Positions 1 to 12,865 of a stretch of 12,865 bases of DNA are shown one piece after another. Every line of letters starts with the position of its first letter. Within the stretch, counting starts at the first letter, position 1. Source of the DNA: Archangiaceae bacterium (GTDB lineage Bacteria; Myxococcota; Myxococcia; Myxococcales; Myxococcaceae). The notes under the pieces are model-generated. The model was not told the origin of the DNA, made no database searches, and worked only from the letters and a program-made list of their open reading frames with translations. Position numbers and translations under genes: made by a program. The stretch is taken from contig JAYVCD010000229.1 of NCBI GenBank assembly GCA_043750125.1, positions 1 to 12,865 on the forward strand, given 5' to 3'.

Positions 1-1095
1 GAGCGGGCCACCTACGCCGAAGTGAAGGCGGTCCTCGAGAAACATGGCAAGGCGGTGAAAGACGCCGACCCGACCGCGCTGACCCTCGGGCCGGCGGCGT
101 GGGGTTGGCTCGAGTATTTCGACAGCGCTGCATTCGAGCGCGCCGATGCGGGGGTCGACTTCGTTCCGTTCTATCTGCAGCAGGCCAAGGCCTACGAGGT
201 GGCCAACAATCGCCGCATCCTCGACTACCTCGACATTCACGTTTACCCCCAGGCCGAAGGAGTCGCGGTGGATGCCGGCACCGCGCCGATGACCAACGAG
301 ATGCGCCTGCGTTCGACCCGAATTCTCTGGGACCCGAGCTACACGGTCGAAAGCTGGGAAGCATGTTGCTACGGCGGGGTGATCAACGCCATTCCGCGGA
401 TGAAGGAATGGGTCGCGAAGAATTACCCCGGTACCAAGTTGGCCATCTCGGGTTACGGCTGGGGCGTCCTCGATACGCCCAGCGGCGCGCTGGCCCAGGT
501 CGATGTCCTCGGAATCCTCGGTCGGGAAGGAGTCGACCTCGCGACGCTCGAAGACGCCCCCGCGGTCAATGGCCTTGGAGAAGACGCCTTCAAGCTCTAC
601 CGGAACTACGACGGCGCGGGCTCGAAGTTCGGTGACACGTCGATTCGCGCGCGCTCGAGCGATGAGCTGCTCGCGTCGTTCTCTTCCTTCAGTGGGAACA
701 AGGTGACGACGGTCCTGGTGAACAAGAATCCCAGCAGCCCCACTGCGGCGACCCTCACCTTCACTGGCATGGGGCAAACCGGCCCGTACCGCGCGTTTCG
801 ATTCGGAGCAGCCGCACGGCTCACTCCCGCCGGCGTCGGGGCGGTGGACAACGGCGCCCTCACGCTCACCTTGCCGCCCTACAGCGCGACCCTGGTCGAG
901 TTCGTACCGGTGGGCGGCGTCGGCAATGCCGAAATTGAACCCGACGCGGGGACTCCGGGCCCGACCGACGGAGGATCGACGGTCAATCCCCCCGTCACTC
1001 CGGGAGGAGGCTGCAACTGCAACCAGATCGACTTCGGGCTGGTGTCCTTCGGCCTGCTGGCGCTGTCGGGACTCGCGCGGCGCCGTCGGGCATAG
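1..1095 (+). CDS. Glycoside hydrolase family 44-like (endoglucanase/xyloglucanase-like) protein, 5'-truncated, with C-terminal beta-sandwich, Pro/Gly linker and MYXO-CTERM-type anchor
   Basis: Frame is open from base 1 (ERATYAEV...), so the start lies outside the window. GH44-like motifs: GPAAWGW, RILDYLDIHVYPQ, RLRSTRILWDPSY.ESW, IPRMKEWVAKNYPGTKLAIS, ALAQVDVLGILGREG, AFKLYRNYDGAGSKFGDTS, VLVNK. Stop TAG at 1093-1095. Confidence 0.85.
   Translation, partial: ERATYAEVKAVLEKHGKAVKDADPTALTLGPAAWGWLEYFDSAAFERADAGVDFVPFYLQQAKAYEVANNRRILDYLDIHVYPQAEGVAVDAGTAPMTNEMRLRSTRILWDPSYTVESWEACCYGGVINAIPRMKEWVAKNYPGTKLAISGYGWGVLDTPSGALAQVDVLGILGREGVDLATLEDAPAVNGLGEDAFKLYRNYDGAGSKFGDTSIRARSSDELLASFSSFSGNKVTTVLVNKNPSSPTAATLTFTGMGQTGPYRAFRFGAAARLTPAGVGAVDNGALTLTLPPYSATLVEFVPVGGVGNAEIEPDAGTPGPTDGGSTVNPPVTPGGGCNCNQIDFGLVSFGLLALSGLARRRRA
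1003..1095 (+). other. MYXO-CTERM-type C-terminal sorting signal
   Basis: GGGCNC motif, hydrophobic stretch FGLVSFGLLALSGLA, then RRRRA-stop, preceded by a low-complexity PDAGTPGPTDGG linker. Confidence 0.8.
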
Positions 1096-1171
1096 CGGGG
1101 CCTGCTGAGTTCAGGTCCCGGCGCTGACGTTCGAGGAGCGAAGGTGCAGTGGATTGCACCTCGCGCCGGAC
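1096..1171. terminator. Stem-loops between convergent genes (possible bidirectional terminator or 3'-end structure)
   Basis: CGGGGCCTG (1096-1104) pairs with CAGGTCCCG (1112-1120) with one G-U pair. AGGTGCA (1142-1148) pairs with TGCACCT (1155-1161). No U-tract on either strand. Confidence 0.4.
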
Positions 1172-1187
1172 TGGATGGACCGCGAGG

Positions 1188-1973
1188 CTAGCGGCGGCTC
1201 TTCTTCTTCGCGGGCGACTTCTTCGCGGCTTTCTTCGAGCCAGCTTTTTTCGACCCGCTCTTCTTCGAGCTCGCTTTCTTCGAGGCGACCTTCCGGGGGG
1301 CGGCATTCTTCGACCCCGCCTTCTTCGGCCCCTTGCTGCTCGAAGGCCTCTTCGCGGCCGCCTTCTTCTTCGGCTTCCGCGCCGCGAGCGTCTTCTTGGC
1401 ACGAGCGACGAACTTCTTCACTGCGCTGGCCGCCTTCTTCGCTGTCTTACGTACCGAGCGGGCCGCTTCATTCGCGCTCTTCTGCACCTGCTCAGCCGCA
1501 TCACCGATCGCGTCGCCCGCGGCCTCGGCGGCATCACTCACCGCGTGCCCCGCCTGGTTCAGCTTCGCCCGCGCCGACTTTGCGTACTCGACCATCGGCT
1601 CAAAGTAGTGCTCTTCCCAACCTTGCCGATGGCTTTCTTCCTGGCCACTGGGAAGATTCGAGTGCCGCACCGTGACCATCGTCCCCTCTCCTTGAGGGTC
1701 GAAGAGGATTTCCACCGTCGAGTCTGGATCCGACTCAAGGAATTCCGTCGTCCGCCAGGCTTGTACAATTCTCGAAAAGGGCTCTTTTTGAAGCGTCTTT
1801 CCCGAGATGTACCCCTCCCAGGCGGTGAAGGTGTCATCGGCCTCGTTGTAGGTGGCGGTACTGCCCGTCATCTGACCGTGCTCTGAGGCTGACAGCCATG
1901 CCTTGTAGAGGGCTTCAGCACTTGCCGGCACAATCCGCGACACTTCGATCAACTCGCTCATTTGAGGGTCCAT
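1188..1973 (-). CDS. SRPBCC/Aha1-like (activator of Hsp90 ATPase homolog 1-like) domain protein with Ala-rich helical linker and Lys-rich histone-H1-like tail
   Basis: N-terminal ~130 aa show the SRPBCC pattern: LYKAWL..HGQMTG, FTAWEGYISG, PFSRIVQAWRT.EF....DSTVEI.F, T.VTVRHSNLP, GWEEHYFEPM. C-terminus is K/A/S-rich. Start is ATG 1973 or ATG 1961. Confidence 0.85.
   Translation of the reverse strand: MDPQMSELIEVSRIVPASAEALYKAWLSASEHGQMTGSTATYNEADDTFTAWEGYISGKTLQKEPFSRIVQAWRTTEFLESDPDSTVEILFDPQGEGTMVTVRHSNLPSGQEESHRQGWEEHYFEPMVEYAKSARAKLNQAGHAVSDAAEAAGDAIGDAAEQVQKSANEAARSVRKTAKKAASAVKKFVARAKKTLAARKPKKKAAAKRPSSSKGPKKAGSKNAAPRKVASKKASSKKSGSKKAGSKKAAKKSPAKKKSRR
1201..1290 (-). repeat. Degenerate ~15-nt coding repeat (xxSKK/xxAKK pentapeptides)
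   Basis: Recurring TTCTTCG units on the + strand encode VASKK-ASSKK-SGSKK-AGSKK-AAKK-SPAKK on the minus strand. Confidence 0.75.
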
Positions 1974-1985
1974 GAGAAAGGGGGG

Positions 1986-2014
1986 TTCGCAGCGGCGCGG
2001 ACTCTACTCATAAT
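1986..2014 (+). promoter_or_regulatory. Candidate sigma70-type promoter for dacB
   Basis: TTCGCA (1986-1991), 17-nt spacer, CATAAT (2009-2014), in the AT-richer 49-bp divergent gap. The -35 match is weak. Confidence 0.45.
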
Positions 2015-2022
2015 CAGGTTTC

Positions 2023-4215
2023 ATGAGTCCCTTCGCGTTGGTGATGGCGTTTGCGCTGGCTGCTGCTCCCCCTTCGCCCGGCGCGAAAGAGAAAGAACGC
2101 GACCAGCTGCGCAAGGTCATCATCGGAGTGATCGAGCGTTCTCCGCTGAAGAATGCCCGCATCTCAGTTCAAGTGCGCAGCCTGGACGATGGAAGCGTGG
2201 TCTTTGCTCAGGGCCAGGACGAGCTGCTCAACCCCGCCTCGAACGTGAAGCTCTTCACCGCCGCCGCCTCGCTGGCGAAGCTCGGCCCGGACTACCGCTT
2301 CGAGACCGAGTTCCTCACCGACTCTGATTCGCGCAACGGAATGACCCGCAACCTCTACGTGCGCGGCCGCGGAGATCCGACCATCACCACCGAGCGGCTC
2401 TACGGAATCGTCAGCGAGCTGGTGCACGCGGGCCTCAAAGAGGTCGGCGACGTGGTGGTCGATGACGCCTGGTTCGATGCGGCCCGCGAGGCGCCCGGCT
2501 TCGATCAGGAAAGCGGCGACCGCGCCTACCTGGCTCCGACCGGCGCGTTGTCTTTGAATTGGAACACGCTGGGCATCTACCTGCGGCCGGGCGAGCGCGA
2601 GGGCGCAGTGGCCACCGCCGAGCTCGAGCCGCCTTCTGAATACTTCACCCTGTCCTCGCAGCTTCGAACCGGCAGCAAGACCCAGCGCCGCTTCGTGGTC
2701 GGCACCGAGCTCGACAAAGATCGCATTCACCAGAAGGTGAGCGTCAGCGGCTTCGTCCCCATCGACAAGGGCGCCTGGAGCGTGTGGAAGAAAGTCGAGC
2801 AGCCCGCTCTGTATTTCGGCTGCACCTTGAAGAGCCTGCTCATCCAGCGCGGGCTGAAGGTGAAAGGCCGGGTCCGAAGCGCGATCGTGCCTCCTGGAAC
2901 CAAGATGCTGCACATCGCCGCCAGCGAGACGCTCGACATCGTGCTGAAGAAGATGAACAAGCACTCTTCGAACTTTGTCGCCGAGCAGCTGATCAAGACC
3001 CTCGGCGCGGAAGGGAAAGGGGCGCCCGGAACCACCGCGCACGGAATCGAGGTGGTCGAAGAGTTTCTCGAGCGCGACGTGGGGATGCGGCGCGGCAGCT
3101 ACGTGATGCGAAACGGGTCGGGTCTCAACGACACCAACCGCTTCTCTGCCGCGCAACAAAACGTGCTGCTCAAGTACATGTGGGACCGCTTTCCCCTCGC
3201 GCCCGAGTTCCTGAGCTCGCTGGGCATCGCGGGCAAAGACGGCACGGTCAAATACCGCTTCGAAGGCACCGACGCGGTCTGGCGCCTGCGCGCGAAGACC
3301 GGAACCCTGGAAAACGTCTCTGCCTTGTCGGGCTACGTGCAGGCCGTCGGCGGTGAACGGTTCGTCTTCACGGTGCTGGTCAATGACTTCCCCGGCCGGG
3401 TCAGCACCGTGCTGCAGCACATCGATGCGGTCGGCGCCGCGGTGGCTGCGACCGGCAGCAGCGGCGGGCCTTCGAGTGCGCTCGCGGCCTTGACCCCACT
3501 TTCGGTCGTCGGCCCGATGGAAGAGCTCAAGTCCCGAATGAGGATCTACGCCGCGGTGGCGATCAAGGCCGACAAGCGCAACGGCCCGTTCCTGCGCACC
3601 AGCTGGCGCACCGAGAAAGATCCTGCGGTCCGGGCGCTGATTGCCGAGGCGCTCTACCAATCTGATGCGCGCGAGGCCGCTTCGACCCGAATGCTGCTCG
3701 ACAGCGTCGCCGCCGGGGAAGAAGTCTACGGGCGGCTGAAGCGGGCAGCCAGAGAGCTGGGGGTGGAGACTCCGATGATCGGCAGCCTGGTCGAGCTGGC
3801 CGCCACCGGCAGCGCAGAGGCGCTGGCGCGGTTGTATGAGCTGACCCGGGCCAGCAACGGAGACGAGGCGGCCGAGAAGGCGATGGCCGATGCGCTGGCG
3901 ATCGTCGCCAACGAGGCGCCCCGCGAGCTGTTGCTGTCGTTGAAGGTCGCGTCGACCGCCGATCGCGAAGCCACCCTCGAAGCGCTCGCCGAAGGGCTGG
4001 TCCGCGCCGGCAAGCCCGACGCGCCGCTGTGGGCGCAGCTCAAAGAGCTTCAGGGTTCTCCCGACGCCAACACCGTCGACTTCTCGCGCCTGGTCGAGAT
4101 GCAGCTCTCTCAGAAGATCGCCGAAGCCAAGGCGCCCGCGCTTCACGACGGGGGGCTGTCCACCACCGTGACGCCTCCGGGGTTGATCAACACCCAACCT
4201 TCGCCCGGCGGCTGA
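2023..4215 (+). CDS. dacB: D-alanyl-D-alanine carboxypeptidase/endopeptidase (PBP4, peptidase S13) with C-terminal helical extension
   Basis: Signal peptide; catalytic SxxK (PASNVK, SNVK at 2239-2250), SxN (SSN, 2965-2973) and KTG (AKTGTL, KTG at 3295-3303); also LGPDYRFET, GRGDPT, NGSGL, SALSGYV. Confidence 0.95.
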   Translation: MSPFALVMAFALAAAPPSPGAKEKERDQLRKVIIGVIERSPLKNARISVQVRSLDDGSVVFAQGQDELLNPASNVKLFTAAASLAKLGPDYRFETEFLTDSDSRNGMTRNLYVRGRGDPTITTERLYGIVSELVHAGLKEVGDVVVDDAWFDAAREAPGFDQESGDRAYLAPTGALSLNWNTLGIYLRPGEREGAVATAELEPPSEYFTLSSQLRTGSKTQRRFVVGTELDKDRIHQKVSVSGFVPIDKGAWSVWKKVEQPALYFGCTLKSLLIQRGLKVKGRVRSAIVPPGTKMLHIAASETLDIVLKKMNKHSSNFVAEQLIKTLGAEGKGAPGTTAHGIEVVEEFLERDVGMRRGSYVMRNGSGLNDTNRFSAAQQNVLLKYMWDRFPLAPEFLSSLGIAGKDGTVKYRFEGTDAVWRLRAKTGTLENVSALSGYVQAVGGERFVFTVLVNDFPGRVSTVLQHIDAVGAAVAATGSSGGPSSALAALTPLSVVGPMEELKSRMRIYAAVAIKADKRNGPFLRTSWRTEKDPAVRALIAEALYQSDAREAASTRMLLDSVAAGEEVYGRLKRAARELGVETPMIGSLVELAATGSAEALARLYELTRASNGDEAAEKAMADALAIVANEAPRELLLSLKVASTADREATLEALAEGLVRAGKPDAPLWAQLKELQGSPDANTVDFSRLVEMQLSQKIAEAKAPALHDGGLSTTVTPPGLINTQPSPGG

Positions 4216-4227
4216 GCGGCGGAAAGG

Positions 4228-5325
4228 TCAGCCGCCCTGGCTGATCAACCCGCTGCGCTTGAGCCAGAAGCCCGCGGCGAGCACGGCCAACATTCCGAAG
4301 GGAATCCACGCGGCCGCAGCGATCGGAAGATGGCCCGCCAGCGCCAGCCCTTTGCCGACCACCATCATCGCCCACATCGAAATCGCGATCGCGAAGCCCT
4401 CGACCAGCGCGCTGGTCAGCTGTCCTTTGCGCCCGGGCCGCAAACCCAGGCCGAGCGCCAACAACGTTCCTGCAAATCCGGTCAGGGGGTACGCGTAGCG
4501 GTTGTGCAGCGCGAGCAGGTGCTTTCCCACCGGCTGGCCCACTTCGCGACGGGCTCGAATCTGCTCGAGCAATTCTGCGCGCCGCAGGTACTCGGGGCGC
4601 CCCGCCTGCACCACCAGCACCTTGCGTGGAAAGTTGAGCTGAAGCTGGGTGTGGGGGACCTGCTCGAGCGTCACGTCGGCCTCGAGCGGAAAGTGACGAA
4701 TCTGCGCCGCCGACAGGTCCCACTGGTTGCCTTCGACCCACGTCATCCGTTCGGCATCGATGCGCGAGACCAGCCGGAAATCTTCGCTGAGCTTGAAGAT
4801 CGACACCCCGACGAAGCCGTCCTTCGCGTCGCCCCCGCTGACGTGAAGCACCTCGTTCCCCCGGCGGAACCATTGGGTCGGGCGGTAGTAGGTGTACCAG
4901 GCGTTCCACCCGCTGTTGAACCGCGTCACTGCCAGGTCGTCCACCCTCGCGCCCGCGTACGTCACCACCGTCTCGTCGAAGGCGAGCAGCAGGCCGGCCG
5001 CGACCAACGCCGAACCTCCAATCGGCAGGTAGAGCGCCGACGGTCCGAAGGTCAGCGCCCGCATCGCGGTGATTTCTCCCCGCTTGCTCAACGTGGCGAT
5101 CGCGGCGCCGGCCGCGAGCATCATCGCCGGAGGTCCCAGCAGCCCAATCGCCACCAGCGATTTGTTCCAATACATCTGCGCCACGTCGAGCAGCGCGTGG
5201 GCCATGAACAGCTTCACCCGATCTGAAAAGTCCGCGACGACGAACACCGCCAGCACCACCGCCAGCATCGCGAGGAAGTAGGTCAGGTACAGCCGCAGCA
5301 CGTAGAGGGTGAGGGTACGGCTCAT
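4228..5325 (-). CDS. lptG: LPS export ABC transporter permease LptG
   Basis: Real start is ATG 5325 (MSRTLTLYVLRLYL), overlapping the lptF stop as ATGA. Contains the LSKRGEITAMRALTF coupling helix, 3 TMs, a periplasmic beta-jellyroll region, HNRYAYPL and 3 more TMs. The upstream part of the 759-aa ORF is an out-of-frame extension over lptF. Confidence 0.88.
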   Translation of the reverse strand: MSRTLTLYVLRLYLTYFLAMLAVVLAVFVVADFSDRVKLFMAHALLDVAQMYWNKSLVAIGLLGPPAMMLAAGAAIATLSKRGEITAMRALTFGPSALYLPIGGSALVAAGLLLAFDETVVTYAGARVDDLAVTRFNSGWNAWYTYYRPTQWFRRGNEVLHVSGGDAKDGFVGVSIFKLSEDFRLVSRIDAERMTWVEGNQWDLSAAQIRHFPLEADVTLEQVPHTQLQLNFPRKVLVVQAGRPEYLRRAELLEQIRARREVGQPVGKHLLALHNRYAYPLTGFAGTLLALGLGLRPGRKGQLTSALVEGFAIAISMWAMMVVGKGLALAGHLPIAAAAWIPFGMLAVLAAGFWLKRSGLISQGG

Positions 5326-6434
5326 CGAATCGTGCCTTCGCGGTTGGCGCGCACCATCGCCCAGCCCCCCAGCGCGAAGAAGACGAGGTTGGCGACCTGC
5401 CCGGCGAGAATGGGAGGCAGCTGGCCCCGCGCTCCCAGCCCCGCCGCAATCTGCATCACCACGTAATACAGGACGTAGCCGACGATGCTGAGCAGGATTC
5501 CCCGGCCCCGCCTCGTCCCGCGCCCTCCGAGCGCGAGCGCCGTTGCCAACAACGCGAACGCCAGTGGCATCAGCGCTCGGCCCACGCGGGCGTGGAAGGT
5601 GACGAGGTAGGGCAGGGGGTTGGGGTCGGTGGTGGCCGCCTCGAGCAGCTGGGTGGGCGTCAACTCTTCTTGCGGACGCTTGAAGGTGTTCTTGCCCATC
5701 GCGCCCTCGACGCTCAGCACCATCGCCCCCTGCTCGAAGTCCGCGACCGCGTAGTCCCCCTGGCCCGGGTTGGCGCGATGCAGGTTCCCCCCGCGCAATA
5801 GCAGCCGCACTTCGTCTCCGGCGCTCTCGGGCACGAGGTGACCTTCCCGGGCGAGCAAGAGCTGGGGCGCGGCGGGATCCCGGCTGTCGTGGATCAGCAC
5901 GTTCTGCCAGACGCCATTGGGCAGGACCCGCTCGGTGTAGAGAACGAAATTCGCGATGTCGTCGTAGAAGATCTCGGGGCGCACATCGCCCATCACGTTG
6001 CGTTTGATCAGCTCGGTGGCGGTGGCAGAGACGGCCCGCATTCCCCATGGCTCGAGCGTCCAGGTCACTGCCAGCGATGCCACCGCCAGCACCGCCGCCA
6101 GCGACATCGGCCACGCCAGCAACTTCCAGGGCCCGATTCCCAGCGCCCGAATCGCGGTCAGCTCGCCGTCTTCGGACAGCCGGCCCAGCCCGAGCAGAAT
6201 CGCGAGCAACAAGGCAATCGGCATCGCCTGAAGCAGGAAGTGGGGGCTCAAGAAGAAGATGAAGCGGAGCAGATCGATCGCGCTGACCGCCGACCCCAGC
6301 AACAGCTCGGTGCCCCGCAGAAAGGACATCGCGAGAAAGAGAAAGAAGAAGAACACCAGCCAGTTCGCCAGGGGCACCAGCACTTCGGCCAGCACGTAGC
6401 GGGCGAGCAGGCGGCTGCTGGGCACGCGGCGCAT
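5322..6434 (-). CDS. lptF: LPS export ABC transporter permease LptF
   Basis: LLARYVLAEVL, MPIALLLAILLGLGRLSEDGELTAIRALGIG, FHARVGRALMPLAFALLA, YVLYY. First gene of a tandem LptF/LptG pair. Start uncertain (ATG 6434, GTG 6425 or TTG 6461). Confidence 0.9.
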   Translation of the reverse strand: MRRVPSSRLLARYVLAEVLVPLANWLVFFFFLFLAMSFLRGTELLLGSAVSAIDLLRFIFFLSPHFLLQAMPIALLLAILLGLGRLSEDGELTAIRALGIGPWKLLAWPMSLAAVLAVASLAVTWTLEPWGMRAVSATATELIKRNVMGDVRPEIFYDDIANFVLYTERVLPNGVWQNVLIHDSRDPAAPQLLLAREGHLVPESAGDEVRLLLRGGNLHRANPGQGDYAVADFEQGAMVLSVEGAMGKNTFKRPQEELTPTQLLEAATTDPNPLPYLVTFHARVGRALMPLAFALLATALALGGRGTRRGRGILLSIVGYVLYYVVMQIAAGLGARGQLPPILAGQVANLVFFALGGWAMVRANREGTIR

Positions 6435-6463
6435 CGTCGCGGCGCCGGCCCACAAGCGCAAGG

Positions 6464-7864
6464 TTGGCGCGGCAACCCGAGTGTAATCTTCCCCACTCTT
6501 TGCTCACCCGAAACCAAAAGGCCGCTGCGATCGCGATCTTCGTTGCCGCCGGCGCGCTGCGGTTATGGGCGATGTCGGGCGAGACGATTCACGATTGGGA
6601 TGAGGCGTACCACGCACTGGTGGCCAAGCACCTCGCGGTCCACCCTCTCGAGCCGACGCTCTACGACGACGCCGCGCTGCCTTACGACGACGGTGCCTGG
6701 AGTCGCTCGCGCATCTTCCTGAACAAGCCTCCGCTGGCCCTGTGGTTGATGGCCGCGTCGATTCGGGTGCTGGGCGCGACAGTCTTTGCGCTGCGGCTTC
6801 CCTCGGCGGTGCTCGATCTGCTGGGGCTCTGGCTCACCTTCGCGATCGGCCTGCGACTGTTCGGGGTGCGGGTCGCGCTGGGGGCGATGGCCCTTCACGC
6901 GGGCCTGGGAAACGCGCTGCTGTGGATCGGAGGGGTCCATGCGACCGACCACGTCGACATTCAGCTCGCCTTCTGGGTCGAGTTCGCCGCGTATGGAATC
7001 GTTCGCCAACAGCAGGGCTCGGGGCGGTGGACCTGGGTCGTCGGACTTGCGACCGGAGCGGCCCTGCTCACCAAGTCCGCGCCCGGCGCCTTGCCCCTGC
7101 TGTTGCTCGCGGCCTTCGGCGGCAAGGGGTTCAAAGAGAACGCCCGGGCCGCGGTGCTCGCCGCGACTCTCGCGCTGGCGATCGCTGCACCCTGGAACAT
7201 CTACCTGCGCGCGCGGTGGCCCGGGCTGTCGGCGAATGCCGCGCACGCGCAGCTCTCTCATCTGTGGTCGGTGTGGGAAGAGCATGGCGGCCCGTTCTAT
7301 TTCCACCTCGAAAAGCTGGGGCAGCTGCACGGGGTGCTCGCCGCGATCGCGGTGGTGTGGTTCATCGCGACCGCGGTGCAATCGAAAGACGCCGGTGCGC
7401 GGATGATTGCGTTTTGGTGGGTGGCTCCGGCGGTGCTGTTCAGCTTTTCGGCCACCAAGATGCCCGGCTACCTGGGGATCGCGTCCCCCGCGGTCTGCCT
7501 GATGACGGCGGCGTTCGCGGTCGCAGCCTTCGAGCGCTACCGGCCCTGGGTCCAGGGGGTCGCCGCGGCGGTGGTGGTCTCGGCGGTGGTGACCGATGGG
7601 CGCGAGCTGCTTCGGCTGGGTCGTTCGTCGCCCGACGCGCAGCAGTTCGCGGCGACGATGCGCGCGCTGCCCCCGCGGACCATCGTGCTCGAAGTCCAGC
7701 CCGCGATTCAGGCGATGTTCTTCGGGGCGCACGCGGCGTACCGCGATTCCTGGAGCCCCGAGCAGCGCGCCTCGGTCGAGCGCGCCGGCTACCCGCTTCG
7801 CATCGCGTCCTGCGACGGCGGGGAAGGGCTGGCGTTGCCCCCCGGGTTCTGCGCTCCACCCTGA
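6464..7864 (+). CDS. ArnT/PMT-like GT-C fold membrane glycosyltransferase (GT83/GT39-like)
   Basis: TM1 followed by WDEAYHALVAK, FLNKPPLALWLMAAS, FALRLPSA, DHVD, GAALLTKS, APW, HGGPFYFH, FSFSATKMPGYL; multiple TM segments. Start uncertain (TTG 6464 or TTG 6500). Substrate unknown, so arnT is not assigned. Confidence 0.85.
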   Translation: MARQPECNLPHSLLTRNQKAAAIAIFVAAGALRLWAMSGETIHDWDEAYHALVAKHLAVHPLEPTLYDDAALPYDDGAWSRSRIFLNKPPLALWLMAASIRVLGATVFALRLPSAVLDLLGLWLTFAIGLRLFGVRVALGAMALHAGLGNALLWIGGVHATDHVDIQLAFWVEFAAYGIVRQQQGSGRWTWVVGLATGAALLTKSAPGALPLLLLAAFGGKGFKENARAAVLAATLALAIAAPWNIYLRARWPGLSANAAHAQLSHLWSVWEEHGGPFYFHLEKLGQLHGVLAAIAVVWFIATAVQSKDAGARMIAFWWVAPAVLFSFSATKMPGYLGIASPAVCLMTAAFAVAAFERYRPWVQGVAAAVVVSAVVTDGRELLRLGRSSPDAQQFAATMRALPPRTIVLEVQPAIQAMFFGAHAAYRDSWSPEQRASVERAGYPLRIASCDGGEGLALPPGFCAPP

Positions 7865-8013: not shown

Positions 8014-9435
8014 CTATGGGACCTTGAGCAGCTTTCCGATCGTCATCGGCGAGGTGTTCGACAGGTGCGAGTAGTCCAACCCCATCGACTTGAGCAGCGT
8101 GGCGTGCACGTCTGAGGGCCGAACCGAGAAGCCGTTGACCTGGTCCACCGCTCCGCTGGTCAGGTCGAACTTCTGCGCCTGCATTCCGATTTCAGAGCTG
8201 GCCCCGAAGACGGTTCCGCCCTTCAGGCCAGGGCCTGCGAGCAGACAGCTGCCGGTGAGGTGGTGATCTCGACCGTCGCGCGGGTTGAGCATCGGGGTGC
8301 GCGAGAACTCGCTGAACGTCATCAGCGAGGTGCATTCCCAGTACGACTTGGTCGTGCCCGGCACGGTCTTCGACTTGAGGTAGGAAATCAGCCGCCCCAG
8401 CGCGTCGAACCCTTCGGCCAGCGACACCGACTGCGCGCCGGCCTCGTCAAAGTGGTCGTCGAGGTTGTCGGCCAGCGTCACCGCCACCACCTGCGAAATG
8501 CCGTTGGTGATCGCCTGGGCGGCGAGCGCTGCCTTCGCCTTCGACGAGTTGAGCTCGGTCGCCGGGTTCAGGTTGAACGCTGCGAACAAGTCGGTGACCG
8601 ACTGGTTCGGGGGAGGATTGCTGAACTGGAACAGCGAAGACGCCACCGAGTTCGTCATCTTCCGCGCCTGGCCCCGGCTCGAACGGAACGCGGCCACCAG
8701 GCCGGTCGCGTCGTACCCGTGGGCTTCACAGGTGTCGGAAGCCCCTTCGAAGTTGATCAACGCCGTCTCGCTGCCGGCGAGGAGTATCGGCGCCTGCACC
8801 TGGGGGTTGAGCACGGTCCGAACGTCGGTGGCCGAGTTGACCCGCGTCGGGCTCGCGAATGCGGGGAACCCGTCGTTGTACGACTCGACGTTGATCGCCA
8901 GGTTCGGCAGGTCGAGCGTGCTCATCGTCTGGCCGGTGACGACGGTGTTCAGCGAGCTGCCGTTCGCGGTCAGGCCGCGGGGGAACTTTCCGGTCAGCAG
9001 GTAGCGCCGGCCGACCTCGTGGGTCAGGGTGTCCATCGACATCCCGCGCACGATGCACAGGTCGGCCGCGTGCGCCGTCATCACCGAAGGCACCGCCGGG
9101 CCGAAAGACAGGCCACCGACCATCTGCTTGCCGGTGCCCCCCGTCGCCGTCATCACCGCGTTGACCGCCGGGTCCTGCGCGGCCATCTCGGTGTAGGCGG
9201 GGTAGATCCCGGTGGTCGGCGCCTTGCCGGCGACGAACTTGTACTGGCTTTGCGTCGCATCGCGCGGGTCGAGCGCCTGCAGTTGGTCCCACCCCCCGTT
9301 GAAGTAGACGAGCAGCAGGAACTTCGGGTCCGGCGGTTGGGCCAGGGCTTCACCCAACAGCGAGCTGCGAAGCATCACACCGCCTCCGAGGAGGCCGGCG
9401 ATTTCGAGGAAGGTGCGGCGGTTGGTCCGGGGCAT
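8014..9435 (-). CDS. DUF1501 family Tat-exported protein
   Basis: Twin-arginine signal NRRTFL...ALA; motifs LLVYFNGGWDQLQALDP, LCIVRGM...LTHE, LDDH, TSLMTFSEFSRTP, GRDHH, LLAGPGLKGGTVFGAS, DVHATLLKSMG. SD-like GAGGA at 9445-9449. Confidence 0.9.
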   Translation of the reverse strand: MPRTNRRTFLEIAGLLGGGVMLRSSLLGEALAQPPDPKFLLLVYFNGGWDQLQALDPRDATQSQYKFVAGKAPTTGIYPAYTEMAAQDPAVNAVMTATGGTGKQMVGGLSFGPAVPSVMTAHAADLCIVRGMSMDTLTHEVGRRYLLTGKFPRGLTANGSSLNTVVTGQTMSTLDLPNLAINVESYNDGFPAFASPTRVNSATDVRTVLNPQVQAPILLAGSETALINFEGASDTCEAHGYDATGLVAAFRSSRGQARKMTNSVASSLFQFSNPPPNQSVTDLFAAFNLNPATELNSSKAKAALAAQAITNGISQVVAVTLADNLDDHFDEAGAQSVSLAEGFDALGRLISYLKSKTVPGTTKSYWECTSLMTFSEFSRTPMLNPRDGRDHHLTGSCLLAGPGLKGGTVFGASSEIGMQAQKFDLTSGAVDQVNGFSVRPSDVHATLLKSMGLDYSHLSNTSPMTIGKLLKVP

Positions 9436-9447
9436 GGCGCGTAATCC

Positions 9448-10191
9448 TCAGTACAGGTGGTACTCGGGGGCGGTGAGCAGCGCGACGCACACCGTGCGCC
9501 AACCCTCGGTGACATGGGCTTGAGTGAGAGCGCCTGTTCCTTTGGCCGCTTTCACCGATTCATCGAACAACGTGCGCAGCGCAGCAATCGGCTGATCATC
9601 GGTAGCCGCCACCTTCATTCCGTGGAAGGCCAGCCGCAGGTACCGCAGGTTCGCGTCGACGCCGGGCTTGTTCGAGGCCACCGTGTCGGTGAGGCCGACG
9701 AACTTTTCAATCGACCGGATCGCCATCGTCGGCTGCGCCACGTCGACGACCAGCGCGCGGTTGCAGGCATCGCGCGCCATGTCGCCCATGAACTTCACGT
9801 ACAGCGGAGAGGGCTCGAAGTTCTCGTCGACCACCACGATGTAGTCCGGCTCGCCCAGGGTGACCGAACGGGCATCGAACCCGTTCACCCCGCCCACCTT
9901 CCAGGTCTCACCGCCGAGGATCACGGGCAGCGAGGCGCGAAGTTGCCGCACCGACATTCGCTGCGCGCCGCCCGAGAGGGCTCCCCCGAGGACTCCGCCG
10001 CCGCCCGAGCCACCCGAACCGCCCCCGGACCCTCCGCCCATTCCTCCAATCGGAGGGTGGTCCAACGGCATCACCGGGCCCGTGTTGCCCAGGTTCAGCG
10101 AGGGGTTTTGATCGGCGGGTTGCACCGGAGGCGTGCTGCACGCCCCCAACAACACCGTCGCAGCAGCCATCAAGCCAGCGAACGTTTTCAT
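9448..10191 (-). CDS. Uncharacterised lipoprotein with Gly/Ser linker; C-terminal domain resembles the distal part of DUF1553/DUF1595-type proteins
   Basis: MKTFAGLMAAATVLLGAC lipobox (Cys18); Gly/Ser linker at 9967-10047; QRMSVRQLRASL and terminal GWRTVCVALLTAPEYHLY. ATGA overlap with the upstream gene; SD GGAGGG at 10196-10201. Confidence 0.8.
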   Translation of the reverse strand: MKTFAGLMAAATVLLGACSTPPVQPADQNPSLNLGNTGPVMPLDHPPIGGMGGGSGGGSGGSGGGGVLGGALSGGAQRMSVRQLRASLPVILGGETWKVGGVNGFDARSVTLGEPDYIVVVDENFEPSPLYVKFMGDMARDACNRALVVDVAQPTMAIRSIEKFVGLTDTVASNKPGVDANLRYLRLAFHGMKVAATDDQPIAALRTLFDESVKAAKGTGALTQAHVTEGWRTVCVALLTAPEYHLY

Positions 10192-11870
10192 CGGACCCTC
10201 CGGTACTGCGGCAACGAAACCATCTGCTCGACCAACCAGGGCAGGCTGTAGCCATTCGTCCTGAAGCCGTCGGCCAGCGTGGTCAGCAGCGGCAGCTCTT
10301 CGAGCTCAGCGCCAATCACGTGCATGTCGCGCTTCACCAACTGAGAGAACATGCGCTTGACCGAGCAGCGGGCAAACGTGCCATCGGCGATGATCTCGTT
10401 CGCGCGCTTCTTCGGGCCGGCCGCGAGCGCGGCGGCGATGGTGGGGTGAGCGGCGTCGGCGTACTGGTACGGGAGCAGCGCGCCCGGGTTCGAGTCGTCG
10501 TTGTCGGTCACGTAGAACCGACCGCAGAAGGCCGAGCTGCTGCCCTTGCACCCGGCGGACATCCGGGGGAATGCGGCGGACGCGAGCACTGTCGTTCCTG
10601 CCTCGGCGAACTGCCCGAACCCGGCCGCGAGCGGCTCGAGAATCCGGTGGCAGTAACGGCAGGTGCAGCGGCCGGTGAGATCCGTTCCACTCGACAAGCA
10701 CGCCGGAGTGCCCGTGCCCGGCGACTCGATGCTGGACGGAGGCGTGAAGCTGTCGCACTCGAAGTCGATGCGGAACCGGTTGGCCCGGCCGCGGTTGGTC
10801 TGAAACCTGAGCAGGTAGGCGGGCAGGGTGACGACGCCGGAGTGCAGCTTGGCCGAGGCCTCGCCGCTGGCGGGATCATTGCGGTCGATCTCGTGCCAGG
10901 TGGTGTCGGTGAAGTCGAAGTTGCCCGAGTCTTCACTCACGTCGGGAATGGCGTAGATCCGCGACAGGCTCAAGTCGTAGGACATGAACCGCTTCCAGTA
11001 GGAAATCGGGCCGTTCACGTCGGCCTTCGACGAGAGCAACAGGTCGGTGTACGGCTTGCCGCCGACGGTCACTTTGTCGATCGACCGACCCAGCTGCTCG
11101 CGCAGCGAAGTGGTGATCGCGTTGGCGACCATCGCCGCCGGGCCGTAGCAGAAGCGCAGGTTCGCACCGCAGCCGCACGCTTTCTGCCCATTGGCCGCGA
11201 CATCGCCGCACGAGACGGTCTTGGTCCCAATCACCACGGTGGGAGTCTCTTGCGCATCGAAGGCGCAGACCTTCACCATCGAAGTCGGGGTGGGATCCCA
11301 GTAGGGGTGAACCAGCCGGTACCCTTCCTGGTAGACGGTCTTTGCGCCCTGAACTTCCTTGTAGACGCTGGCCGAAGCGGGGTCGATTCGGAATTGGCCG
11401 GGGAAGGCGGGGTCGAAGGTGGTCTGCTCGAAGTCGCCGCAGCCGCGCCCATTGGTGACGGTCGTCAGGTCCGGCTCATTGCGGTAGTTGAGCTTTCTGC
11501 CCGCGCTGCCGAGCATGTACGCGGTCGAGCCCGGGGTCTTCAGCGCCGTCAGCTGCAGCTGCGCGTTGACGTTGTTGAGCTTGACGTTGCTCACGTTGGG
11601 CCAGAACAACTCTTCGTGGTACCGGCGCATCACCACCCGGAAGTCGTCGGTGGTCAGAAACGCTTTCACCTGGGTCACCGGCACGGTGCTCTGCGAGTCG
11701 AGCGCGTTGTACTCGGCGAAGCTCGGCACCCGCCCTCGCAAGTCGAGCGAGAGCCGACGCAGCAGTTGGTACTTGTCGACCTCGTGCTGCGCATCGCACG
11801 TCGCGGGAACGGGTTCTGCGATTGCGCTGCTGGCAATCAGTGACAGCAGCAACACCTTTGTCTTTGTCAT
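10188..11870 (-). CDS. Secreted Cys-rich protein with one CxxCH heme motif; DUF1549-like N-terminus and DUF1588/DUF1585-like C-terminus
   Basis: Start ATG 11870 (or adjacent GTG 11873) overlaps the upstream TGA; SD GGAGG at about 11883-11887. Sec signal MTKTKVLLLSLIASSAIA; QLLRRLSLDLRGRVP..AEY; HSGVVTLPAYL; CRYCHRILEPL (CRYCH at 10647-10661); FARCSVKRMF; 15 Cys counted. Confidence 0.82.
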   Translation of the reverse strand: MTKTKVLLLSLIASSAIAEPVPATCDAQHEVDKYQLLRRLSLDLRGRVPSFAEYNALDSQSTVPVTQVKAFLTTDDFRVVMRRYHEELFWPNVSNVKLNNVNAQLQLTALKTPGSTAYMLGSAGRKLNYRNEPDLTTVTNGRGCGDFEQTTFDPAFPGQFRIDPASASVYKEVQGAKTVYQEGYRLVHPYWDPTPTSMVKVCAFDAQETPTVVIGTKTVSCGDVAANGQKACGCGANLRFCYGPAAMVANAITTSLREQLGRSIDKVTVGGKPYTDLLLSSKADVNGPISYWKRFMSYDLSLSRIYAIPDVSEDSGNFDFTDTTWHEIDRNDPASGEASAKLHSGVVTLPAYLLRFQTNRGRANRFRIDFECDSFTPPSSIESPGTGTPACLSSGTDLTGRCTCRYCHRILEPLAAGFGQFAEAGTTVLASAAFPRMSAGCKGSSSAFCGRFYVTDNDDSNPGALLPYQYADAAHPTIAAALAAGPKKRANEIIADGTFARCSVKRMFSQLVKRDMHVIGAELEELPLLTTLADGFRTNGYSLPWLVEQMVSLPQYRRVR

Positions 11871-12865
11871 CACGGCTGCATCCCTCCGGCGACCCACTTG
11901 AGGACCACCGCGTAATCAGCGGCGGACAACACTTCGCTATTGGCGGGCGGCATCGGAGCGACGCCTTCCGCTTTCAATCGTTTGATCACCAACGGTGCGT
12001 AGGTTTTCGTGACCGCGTAGTCGTTGAAGTTGATGATCGGCGAGCTCTGCGCCCCGGTGAGGTGGCAGCTGTTGCAGTGCGCAGCCATGAACGGCTTCAC
12101 GTCGGTCGCGAAGGAAACCGGCTGGCCGGTGGCGAGCTTGATCAACACCGCGGCGTCGAGCGCGAACGTGTCGCCGGCGGCATCGACCTGTAGGCCCCGC
12201 GCGCGCGGACCGGCGAGGTCGCCAAAGGTCTTGAAGCTCGCGCCCTCGAGGCGGGCCACTTTTCCCCCGGCCGCAATCAACACCCCGCCCAGCGCGCTGA
12301 CCACGTCGTCGGCCGCGACCACCGCGGACCCTGCGGCCGCCAGCGTGCGGCGCTTCACTTCTCCGGACTTCAGCCGCTCGTACAGGCCGGTGGTGGTGGC
12401 GAGCATCACCGACCCGTCGTCGGTGCGGCTCCACGCGTTCACGGTGCCGATGTCCCGGGCGATCCAGGTGGCCTTGTTTGCCCCGAGGTCGACCAGGAAG
12501 GCCTGGTTTTTGGCGACCACCACCGCCTGGTCCGGGCCCGCGCCGACGGCCAGGCTCGCGATTCCCAGGGGCCCGAGCTTCGGAAACTCGATCTCGACCG
12601 CGCGCATCATCGAGGACTTCACGTGTTGGATCCCCGTGCTCGTCGTCAGCCACAGCTCTTCGGCCGCGCCTTCTGCGTACCCGTCCACCGCCGTCACCGT
12701 CAGCCCACTCAAATCGGTCGAGACCGGCGACTTGAGCAGCCGCCCGTCGAGCACGTGGAACAGGCCACCGCCCGCCACCACCCACAGGCCATTGGCCCCC
12801 CGGCGGCCGACGAACCGAACCGGGCCGGTTTCCATCACTTCGCCCGGCGCGCCCACCGGGACCGC
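11870..12865 (-). CDS. Beta-propeller-like repeat protein with C-terminal monoheme class I cytochrome c (planctomycete cytochrome c-like), 5'-truncated
   Basis: Frame is open to the window edge. Repeats GLWVVAGGGLFHV, ELWLTTSTGIQHV, SVMLATTTGLYER, GVLIAAGGKVARL. Terminal VSFATDVKPFMAAHCNSCH (CNSCH at 12062-12076)...PMPP...LSAADYAVVLKWVAGG. Confidence 0.82.
   Translation of the reverse strand, partial: AVPVGAPGEVMETGPVRFVGRRGANGLWVVAGGGLFHVLDGRLLKSPVSTDLSGLTVTAVDGYAEGAAEELWLTTSTGIQHVKSSMMRAVEIEFPKLGPLGIASLAVGAGPDQAVVVAKNQAFLVDLGANKATWIARDIGTVNAWSRTDDGSVMLATTTGLYERLKSGEVKRRTLAAAGSAVVAADDVVSALGGVLIAAGGKVARLEGASFKTFGDLAGPRARGLQVDAAGDTFALDAAVLIKLATGQPVSFATDVKPFMAAHCNSCHLTGAQSSPIINFNDYAVTKTYAPLVIKRLKAEGVAPMPPANSEVLSAADYAVVLKWVAGGMQP

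What the first reader, a model, noticed from the sequence alone, without database searches (positions are those of the whole stretch)
8014..12865. Uncharacterised exported heme-c/DUF1501 operon of at least four genes: candidate extracytoplasmic redox enzyme complex
Seen: four co-oriented genes joined by TGATG (11870) and ATGA (10188-10191) overlaps and a 12-nt gap, the last three each with an SD-like site. Two products carry a CxxCH, one has a lipobox, one has a Tat signal. Established: DUF1501 genes regularly sit beside DUF1800 or DUF1549/DUF1553 genes, and I know of no assigned function for them; Tat export usually means a folded, cofactor-loaded protein. Inference: a stoichiometric membrane-anchored complex in which the DUF1501 metallo-subunit and the heme-bearing Cys-rich subunit form the core, the lipoprotein tethers it, and the propeller-cytochrome provides substrate binding and electron relay. 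The operon may extend beyond the right edge. I cannot verify that it is undescribed.
Basis: partly seen in the sequence, partly recalled or inferred. Interest (0 to 1): 0.8.

Follow-up and report, generated by a model that had tools for sequence, protein, structure and literature searches.

The report
Split haem–metalloenzyme operon of myxobacteria
Four adjacent genes, kept together across many myxobacteria, encode an exported phosphatase-fold protein, a haem-motif protein split in two and a cytochrome-like lipoprotein that likely form a membrane-anchored enzyme of still unknown chemistry, a variant of a long-unexplained planctomycete gene module that can be tested in the lab bacterium Myxococcus xanthus.

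Summary
Observation confirmed. The order A (propeller plus cytochrome c), B (Cys-rich, CxxCH), C (lipoprotein), D (Tat, DUF1501) is conserved. B-C-D stood in 63 of 63 sufficiently long D-selected loci, and A is usual but not obligatory. The operon starts at A, which lacks about 84 codons here and is a lipoprotein in most relatives.

B and C are halves of one 'planctomycete cytochrome' protein. Natural B-C fusions exist, and profile alignments put B and C in order B-C in DUF1549/DUF1553 proteins and C-B in DUF1592-type proteins, which points to a circular permutation. D models as an alkaline-phosphatase/NPP fold (Z 19.3) with invariant metal-type residues and probably His at the nucleophile position. 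Cysteine bookkeeping predicts a B C25-D C236 interchain disulfide.

The electron-transfer idea was published for the planctomycete module in 2012, and this scan noted similar cassettes on other DNA. No function was found in print. The M. xanthus paralogue MXAN_1001-1005 is co-regulated and higher in starvation and early predation.

Verdict: new variant of a known kind.

The parts
11870..12865 (-). Gene A, 5'-truncated (about 84 codons missing): beta-propeller-like region plus C-terminal class-I-like cytochrome c domain (CNSCH 264-268, conserved Met305 in PMPP); a lipoprotein in most relatives
   Evidence: Cytochrome_CBB3 23.8 bits, below cut-off 27; profile hits to propeller proteins, weak hit to cytochrome c6 E 0.066
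10188..11870 (-). Gene B, 560 aa, Sec-type signal; helical PSCyt/PSD-type core with one CxxCH (404-408), a disulfide-rich beta insert (about 95-245), invariant R360/R362, and one predicted unpaired Cys (C25)
   Evidence: (AlphaFold2 pLDDT 95.9)
9448..10191 (-). Gene C, 247 aa lipoprotein (LLGAC18, Gly-rich linker, 170-aa domain with two invariant Cys); the other half of the PSCyt/PSD protein
   Evidence: (PSD5 weak in 8 of 18 members)
8014..9435 (-). Gene D, 473 aa, Tat signal, DUF1501; alkaline-phosphatase/NPP/sulfatase fold; invariant D50, H139, C236, D326, H328, E376, R379, R389, D390, H391
   Evidence: (pLDDT 94.6)
11868..11872 (-). TGATG stop-start overlap between A and B
   Evidence: overlap type conserved
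10188..10191 (-). ATGA stop-start overlap between B and C, at the point where fused relatives are continuous

Best explanation
The four co-inherited genes likely build a lipid-anchored enzyme outside the cytoplasm, in which D is predicted to be the catalytic metal-binding subunit and B plus C are the two halves of its predicted haem-c partner. D would fold and load its metals in the cytoplasm and leave by Tat. B would leave by Sec, receive haem c and disulfides, and reassemble with lipoprotein C, which supplies the anchor. B C25 and D C236 would lock the two subunits by a disulfide. With His instead of Ser/Thr/Cys at the inferred nucleophile position, D would not use the covalent intermediate of its hydrolase relatives. 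The mechanism I think most likely is metal-site binding and oxidation of an anionic (phosphate- or sulfate-bearing) breakdown product, with electrons passing to B's haem and on to A's His/Met-type cytochrome and the respiratory chain, used for scavenging when nutrients are short or prey is attacked. Shown: gene content, conservation, B-C unity by fusion, D's fold as a model, co-regulation of the M. xanthus paralogue. Inferred: binding, disulfide, haem and metal loading, redox chemistry, substrate.
For: Co-inheritance: C directly before D in 78 of 80 D-selected loci (two misses at contig ends); B-C-D in 63 of 63 with at least 4.2 kb upstream; an A-type cytochrome beside it in 61 of 63, upstream in 29 and downstream in 32. 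C-selected loci from other families: B in 35 of 36, D in 33 of 36 (misses at contig ends), A-type in 26 of 36 (40 of the 76 listed matches were fetched). B-C fusions: L291-L293 (with an extra N-terminal CxxCH) and L294 (beside a Tat DUF1501 gene). Profile matches to both PSCyt/PSD families. D fold: Z 19.3, rmsd 3.3, 249 aligned to NPP 7mw8; 51 Foldseek hits at E<=0.001, the listed ones sulfatases, NPPs and kin. Ten invariant residues in 123 of 123. H139 starts a helix and lies 10 residues before the G of LLTG, the spacing of the NPP motif seen in 10 fetched NPP-like proteins (that this Thr is the nucleophile is recalled). Cys count of B is odd in 124 of 138 and 67 of 68; 391-402, 372-502 and 234-241 covary; fusions without an adjacent D lack C25; C25 and C236 are both present in 67 of 68 pairs; the D of L304 has C236 as its only Cys; L294 lacks both. 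The genome encodes two cytochrome c assembly proteins. MXAN_1001-1005 move together in csgA and mrpC mutants, rise at 2 h of predation and are higher in buffer than in medium (supplement rows).
Against: All named structural relatives of D are hydrolases, transferases or mutases, none an oxidoreductase. The profile alignment of D to NPP-like proteins failed (best E 0.014), so the nucleophile assignment rests on motif spacing and secondary structure. B has no conserved Met, only H85 and H343 as candidate sixth ligands, and model coordinates could not be inspected. A is absent from some loci. No substrate clue among neighbours. Expression data concern the paralogous subfamily (B about 29%, D about 37% identical), the changes are modest, expression is flat through development and lower in an ahpC mutant. 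Seven full-length B homologues lack a Cys near position 25 and their D partners could not be checked. Related genomes are not independent samples.
Confidence: 0.4

Rival explanations
1. D is a non-redox metallo-hydrolase (phosphodiesterase-, phosphatase- or sulfatase-like, using metal-bound water), and B/C/A anchor it, select the substrate or gate it by redox state.
For: Best fold matches are NPP, PafA and sulfatases. Acidic and His ligands are retained. The paralogue is higher in nutrient-free buffer. PSCyt genes neighbour sulfatase genes in Verrucomicrobia (PMC5615132, passages).
Against: No sulfatase or NPP nucleophile motif in D. A second, His/Met-type cytochrome is kept beside the core in 61 of 63 loci and in two different positions, which is hard to explain without electron flow.
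Confidence: 0.27
2. The complex is not catalytic. It is an envelope scaffold, receptor or metal/haem-handling assembly in which D binds metal or an anionic ligand and the haems sense redox or gas.
For: The nucleophile appears replaced. B's helical module weakly resembles phycobilisome linker domains and the RsaA N-terminal domain (Z 3.2-4.2; profile E 0.012), and a 2026 paper notes a DUF1800-ApcE likeness (PMC12981691, passage). The paralogous operon includes an FG-GAP repeat protein. The genome holds 19 PSD5 and 9 DUF1501 matches, as expected of a diversified receptor family.
Against: The structural likeness is within the range the tool calls uninformative. A full set of active-site-type residues is invariant in D. 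Expanded paralogue sets are just as typical of substrate-specific enzymes.
Confidence: 0.2
3. B's CxxCH is not a haem site but part of its disulfide or metal network; only A is a cytochrome, and it is loosely linked.
For: B has 15 Cys, the motif sits in CxCxxCH, and no cytochrome fold was matched. A is dispensable in some loci.
Against: C404, C407 and H408 are invariant in 138 of 138 while the flanking C402 is lost together with C391 in 46. The same motif aligns with the CxxCH of the Cys-poor DUF1592-type proteins.
Confidence: 0.1

Closest known systems
DUF1501 + PSCyt1/PSCyt2/PSD1 (DUF1549/DUF1553) module of Planctomycetes, Verrucomicrobia and Lentisphaerae (Kamneva et al. 2012, PMC3542564)
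   Same: Tat-signal DUF1501 gene beside a CxxCH-bearing PSCyt/PSD gene; a four-gene form with a cytochrome-plus-propeller (PSCyt1/WD40) protein; same proposed role; function unknown.
   Different: Here the PSCyt2-PSD1 homologue is split into a secreted B and a lipoprotein C, B has a disulfide-rich insert and scores below the Pfam cut-offs, A has propeller before cytochrome, and the hosts are myxobacteria and their phylum relatives.
DUF1592-type proteins (PSD3-PSD5-PSD4-PSCyt3-PSD2) with DUF1552/HXXSHH partners
   Same: Closest profile match: B's C-terminal half 99.3% probability, E 1e-20, CxxCH aligned; C to their N-terminal part 88%, E 3e-6. NCBI names the M. xanthus B 'DUF1585 domain-containing protein'.
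   Different: Order is C then B in one chain; the partner here is DUF1501, not DUF1552 (the DUF1552 pairing is from recall and earlier scan notes).
Alkaline phosphatase superfamily (NPP, PafA, sulfatases)
   Same: Core fold (Z up to 19.3) and conserved Asp/His/Glu residues at active-site-type positions.
   Different: 10-16% identity to the best matches; no Ser/Thr/Cys nucleophile motif; obligate haem-motif partner genes.
M. xanthus DK1622 MXAN_1001-1005
   Same: B, C, D and an A-type cytochrome lipoprotein with the same invariant residues.
   Different: Paralogous subfamily in order B-C-D-A2-E with an FG-GAP protein; B has a larger insert (25 Cys); no main-text mention found.

Membership tests
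DUF1501 (PF07394) | Pfam score above gathering cut-off | tested here: met
   98.2 bits vs 27
DUF1501-PSCyt module (Kamneva 2012) | Tat-signal DUF1501 gene adjacent to a gene for a PSCyt/PSD-related CxxCH protein | tested here: met
   RRTFL in D; B and C homologous to PSCyt2-PSD1 by profile, 96.5%, 96.3% and 66.7% probability
PSCyt2-PSD1 (DUF1549/DUF1553) proteins | PSCyt2 and PSD1 above Pfam cut-offs in one polypeptide | tested here: not met
   B PSCyt2 21.3 bits vs 29.8, no PSD1 hit; split over two genes. Fused relatives L291 and L293 pass the PSCyt2 cut-off.
DUF1592-type (PSD3/5/4-PSCyt3-PSD2) proteins | Domains in order PSD3-PSD5-PSD4-PSCyt3-PSD2 in one chain, above cut-offs | tested here: not met
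   B PSCyt3 13.4 vs 27; C no Pfam hit; gene order B then C
Alkaline phosphatase superfamily | alpha/beta core fold | tested here: met
   On the AlphaFold2 model: Z 19.3, rmsd 3.3, 249 residues; 68 chains at Z>=8
Sulfatases / NPP phosphodiesterases | C/S-x-P-x-R or T-x-P-N-H nucleophile motif before L-x-T-G | tested here: not met
   D reads T-H-E-V-G-R-R-Y-L-L-T-G there; H139 in 123 of 123; no Sulfatase or Phosphodiest Pfam hit
Alkaline phosphatase superfamily | Residue-level match of the metal ligands | tested here: inconclusive
   Candidates invariant, but the profile alignment failed and the fold search gives only ranges
Class I cytochrome c (domain of A) | N-terminal CxxCH and distal conserved Met | tested here: met
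   C264, C267, H268, M305 invariant in 28 of 28; Pfam Cytochrome_CBB3 23.8 bits, below cut-off 27
c-type cytochromes (A and B) | Covalently bound haem | not testable with these tools
   Only motif conservation and presence of assembly genes
Stable multi-subunit complex | Physical binding of D to B/C | not tested

The most novel reading that the evidence does not exclude
DUF1549/DUF1553 and DUF1592-type 'planctomycete cytochromes' are circular permutants of one haem protein of unsolved fold, and the myxobacterial split form marks the permutation point. With a disulfide-linked DUF1501 subunit it forms the first alkaline-phosphatase-fold oxidoreductase: a His-substituted metal site wired to haem c. 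MXAN_1001-1005 would be the tractable handle on a module present in tens of copies per genome.
Probability: 0.3. Interest if true: 0.85.

Novelty: new variant of a known kind. Interest (0 to 1): 0.5.

Why it matters
DUF1501/PSCyt modules were described in 2012 as abundant in planctomycetes and verrucomicrobia, and no function turned up in my searches. This one genome has 9 DUF1501 and 19 PSD5 matches. The split operon links the two big PSCyt/PSD families, names residues to mutate (D H139, D326, H328, H391, C236; B C25, C404/C407/H408, R360/R362; A M305) and has an expressed, co-regulated paralogue in genetically tractable M. xanthus. That makes a long-open question directly testable. It is not a new kind of system by gene content, and the scan has met relatives before.

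Tried and rejected
Complex prediction (B with D) was not available; nothing was folded, so binding is untested. No RNA holder was listed for the window. Sequence searches of solved structures with D, its profile, and the B and C profiles gave nothing significant. Fold searches with the B model gave no clear match (Foldseek none at E<=0.001; best Z 4.2); this does not show a new fold, and the 541-residue model was not searched by domain. NCBIfam had no family for A-D. The D profile aligned to NPP-like proteins without significance, and the sulfatase set was too small to build (1 sequence passed the filter). A first B-versus-PSCyt2/PSD1 comparison used one template only and was redone with ten. 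B and C profiles against D served as negative controls (E 0.36-0.37). The viral contig scan with the D alignment found no relative, so the phage-borne trios in earlier notes were neither confirmed nor refuted. Neighbour clustering found no conserved fifth gene for this subfamily. No sigma-70 promoter or terminator match. No main-text mention of MXAN_1001-1005 or their RS tags. No hit in the supplements of the OMV proteome paper PMC4158809 (identifier format not checked). The supplements of the lipoprotein paper PMC3222651 were unreadable and may bear on localisation. Rejected: longer operon to the right; developmental-stage-specific role; peroxide defence (paralogue down in an ahpC mutant, not significantly changed with PexR). 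Inter-protein coevolution was not attempted, since 68 paired rows in a few clades are too few.
Full report
Observation. The window is the whole contig C229 of a 6.17 Mb, 89% complete genome. Four minus-strand genes occupy 8014-12865: A (12865-11870, cut at the contig edge), B (11870-10188), C (10191-9448) and D (9435-8014). D is a DUF1501 protein (98.2 bits). B has only sub-threshold PSCyt2 and PSCyt3 hits, A a sub-threshold cytochrome hit, and C none. NCBIfam names none of them. No other contig continues the right edge.

Conservation. B has relatives in 20 of 41 related genomes, 561 proteins in the word-index search and 1968 cluster representatives. A scan with the D alignment found 449 relatives; the best 80 loci were kept, nearly all titled as myxobacteria. 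In them C lies directly before D in 78 of 80, the two misses being at contig ends. All 63 loci with at least 4.2 kb upstream are B-C-D. Of these, 29 have A upstream, 32 have a related cytochrome lipoprotein downstream (usually followed by an FG-GAP gene), one is cut off and one (L070) has none. A search with the C profile matched 52 of 151 genomes in 10 families of the phylum. I fetched 40 of its 76 listed matches, all outside the window's family: 36 split loci had B in 35, D in 33 and an A-type gene in 26, and 4 were fusions. Five of the 36 show frame breaks. The gene before A is on the opposite strand in 24 of 28 loci and no fifth gene is conserved. The operon therefore starts at A, and about 84 codons with a probable lipobox are missing here. 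These genomes are related, so the counts are not independent.

B and C are one protein in two genes. Members of the B alignment weakly match PSCyt2, PSCyt3, PSD2, PSD1, PSD4 and DUF1800, and members of C match PSD5. Against a profile of 17 DUF1592-type proteins from the same genome, C aligns to columns 6-145 (88%, E 3e-6), B's N-terminus to 161-235 (E 0.002) and B's C-terminal half, CxxCH included, to 242-497 (99.3%, E 1e-20). Against ten PSCyt2-PSD1 proteins, B's ends align to 4-68 and 226-307 (96%) and C's end to 433-484 (67%, E 5e-5); the two templates match each other in permuted order (87%, and E 0.0015 for the displaced piece); controls against D gave E 0.36. The two families thus look like circular permutants, with the B/C gene boundary at the joint. 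The C-side matches are the weaker ones. Natural B-C fusions exist: L291-L293 (704-730 aa open frames, with an extra N-terminal CxxCH) and L294 beside a Tat DUF1501 gene. B folds confidently (pLDDT 95.9) without a clear solved relative.

D. The model (pLDDT 94.6) matches the alkaline phosphatase superfamily: best Z 19.3 to NPP 7mw8, then PafA, ENPPs and sulfatases. D50, H139, C236, D326, H328, E376, R379, R389, D390 and H391 are invariant in 123 of 123 sequences, and the same motifs recur with few changes in the D proteins from other families. H139 opens helix 139-148 and lies ten residues before the G of LLTG, the spacing of the NPP motif in ten fetched proteins. That this place holds the nucleophile is recalled knowledge, and a direct profile alignment failed, so the assignment is an inference.

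Cysteines. B's total is odd in 124 of 138 and 67 of 68 sequences; 391-402, 372-502 and 234-241 are gained and lost together. Fusions with no adjacent D lack C25 and keep an even set. C25 and D's C236 co-occur in 67 of 68 pairs and in the further loci, where one D has C236 as its only Cys. L294 lacks both. The simplest reading is a B-D interchain disulfide; homodimer disulfides or a haem ligand are not excluded.

A. C264, C267, H268 and M305 are invariant in 28 of 28; the profile hits propeller proteins and, weakly, cytochrome c6. The genome encodes cytochrome c assembly proteins.

Model organism. The downstream-cytochrome subfamily is MXAN_1001-1005 in M. xanthus DK1622. I found no main-text mention. 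Supplement rows seen: log2 +1.2 to +1.8 for four of five genes at 2 h on S. meliloti and 0 at 6 h (PMC9548883); all five +2.1 to +2.4 for csgA and -1.2 to -1.5 for mrpC (PMC11980068); MXAN_1001 at 9-29 FPKM in medium against 170-696 in buffer (PMC5857379); +0.9 and +1.0 on C. crescentus (PMC11804543); flat over 96 h of development (PMC6791715); -1.3 and -0.8 in an ahpC mutant (PMC12754779). This shows a real, co-regulated operon with a lean towards starvation and early predation. It concerns a paralogue about 29-37% identical.

Mechanism. The best reading (0.4) is a lipid-anchored haem-coupled metallo-oxidoreductase: D catalytic, B+C the haem partner and anchor, A an accessory electron acceptor. 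Rivals are a redox-gated hydrolase (0.27), a non-catalytic scaffold or sensor (0.2) and a haem-free B (0.1).

Prior knowledge. Kamneva et al. 2012 (PMC3542564; passages and section 22 read) described DUF1501 with PSCyt1/PSCyt2/PSD1, a four-gene form with a PSCyt1/WD40 protein, and proposed electron transfer plus a Tat enzyme. The 2017 Verrucomicrobia paper (PMC5615132, passages) links PSCyt genes to carbohydrate-binding domains and sulfatases and says their function is unknown. PMC5122149 (passages) finds DUF1501-DUF1800 beside bacterial chitin synthases. PMC12981691, PMC6653060 and PMC11495043 (passages) assign no function. Searches for the family names and accessions returned no functional study; the library omits most subscription papers. 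Earlier notes of this scan describe similar cassettes on other DNA; a search for a permutation note found none, nor did a sequence look-up with B.

Verdict. A real, conserved operon and a new variant of the known DUF1501-PSCyt module. The additions here are the split/permutation link, the fusions, the predicted disulfide, the His substitution and a tractable paralogue. Interest 0.5.

Noticed in passing
G000:C31:39976-41541 (-): One open frame strings together a short piece resembling a subfamily-2 B, most of a subfamily-2 D with an internal in-frame deletion, about 95 aa of the FG-GAP gene and an unrelated tail: a collapsed remnant or mis-assembly of the paralogous operon.
   Followed up: partly
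own genome, many contigs: 19 PSD5/DUF1592-type and 9 DUF1501 matches, plus further distant B-like CxxCH genes beside D-like genes (C19, C348, C29, C165).
   Followed up: partly
L291:192-2369, L292:2962-5151, L293:1746-3857: Fused CxxCH-B-C proteins with no DUF1501 gene detected next to them in the stretches fetched; their N-terminal CxxCH domain is short and only weakly like cytochrome c7.
   Followed up: partly
L089:4466-5065 and L094:3804-4394: A divergent DUF420 gene precedes the subfamily-2 operon in 25 loci and a haem oxygenase gene in 15; may be plain synteny among close relatives.
   Followed up: no
L079 / L027 (one locus): A-B-C-D is followed by a second complete B gene.
   Followed up: no
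L278, L281, L284, L285, L287, L309-L311, L313: In other families an FG-GAP gene like MXAN_1005 lies beside the operon on the opposite strand, so it is a recurrent fifth partner in two arrangements.
   Followed up: no
L034:5372-6520: A 13-CxxCH multihaem protein gene lies directly upstream of a B-C-D operon in the same orientation.
   Followed up: no
window 10191-11813, B model: Weak but repeated likeness of B's helical module to phycobilisome linker domains and the RsaA N-terminal domain.
   Followed up: partly
window 1-7864: Ordinary neighbours: GH44-like glycoside hydrolase with a myxosortase-like tail (1-1095), AHSA1 protein with Lys/Ala-rich tail (1188-1973), PBP4 carboxypeptidase (2023-4215), lptF/lptG pair (4228-6461), PMT_2 glycosyltransferase (6464-7864). 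In L021 an lptG-like gene also lies downstream of D.
   Followed up: no
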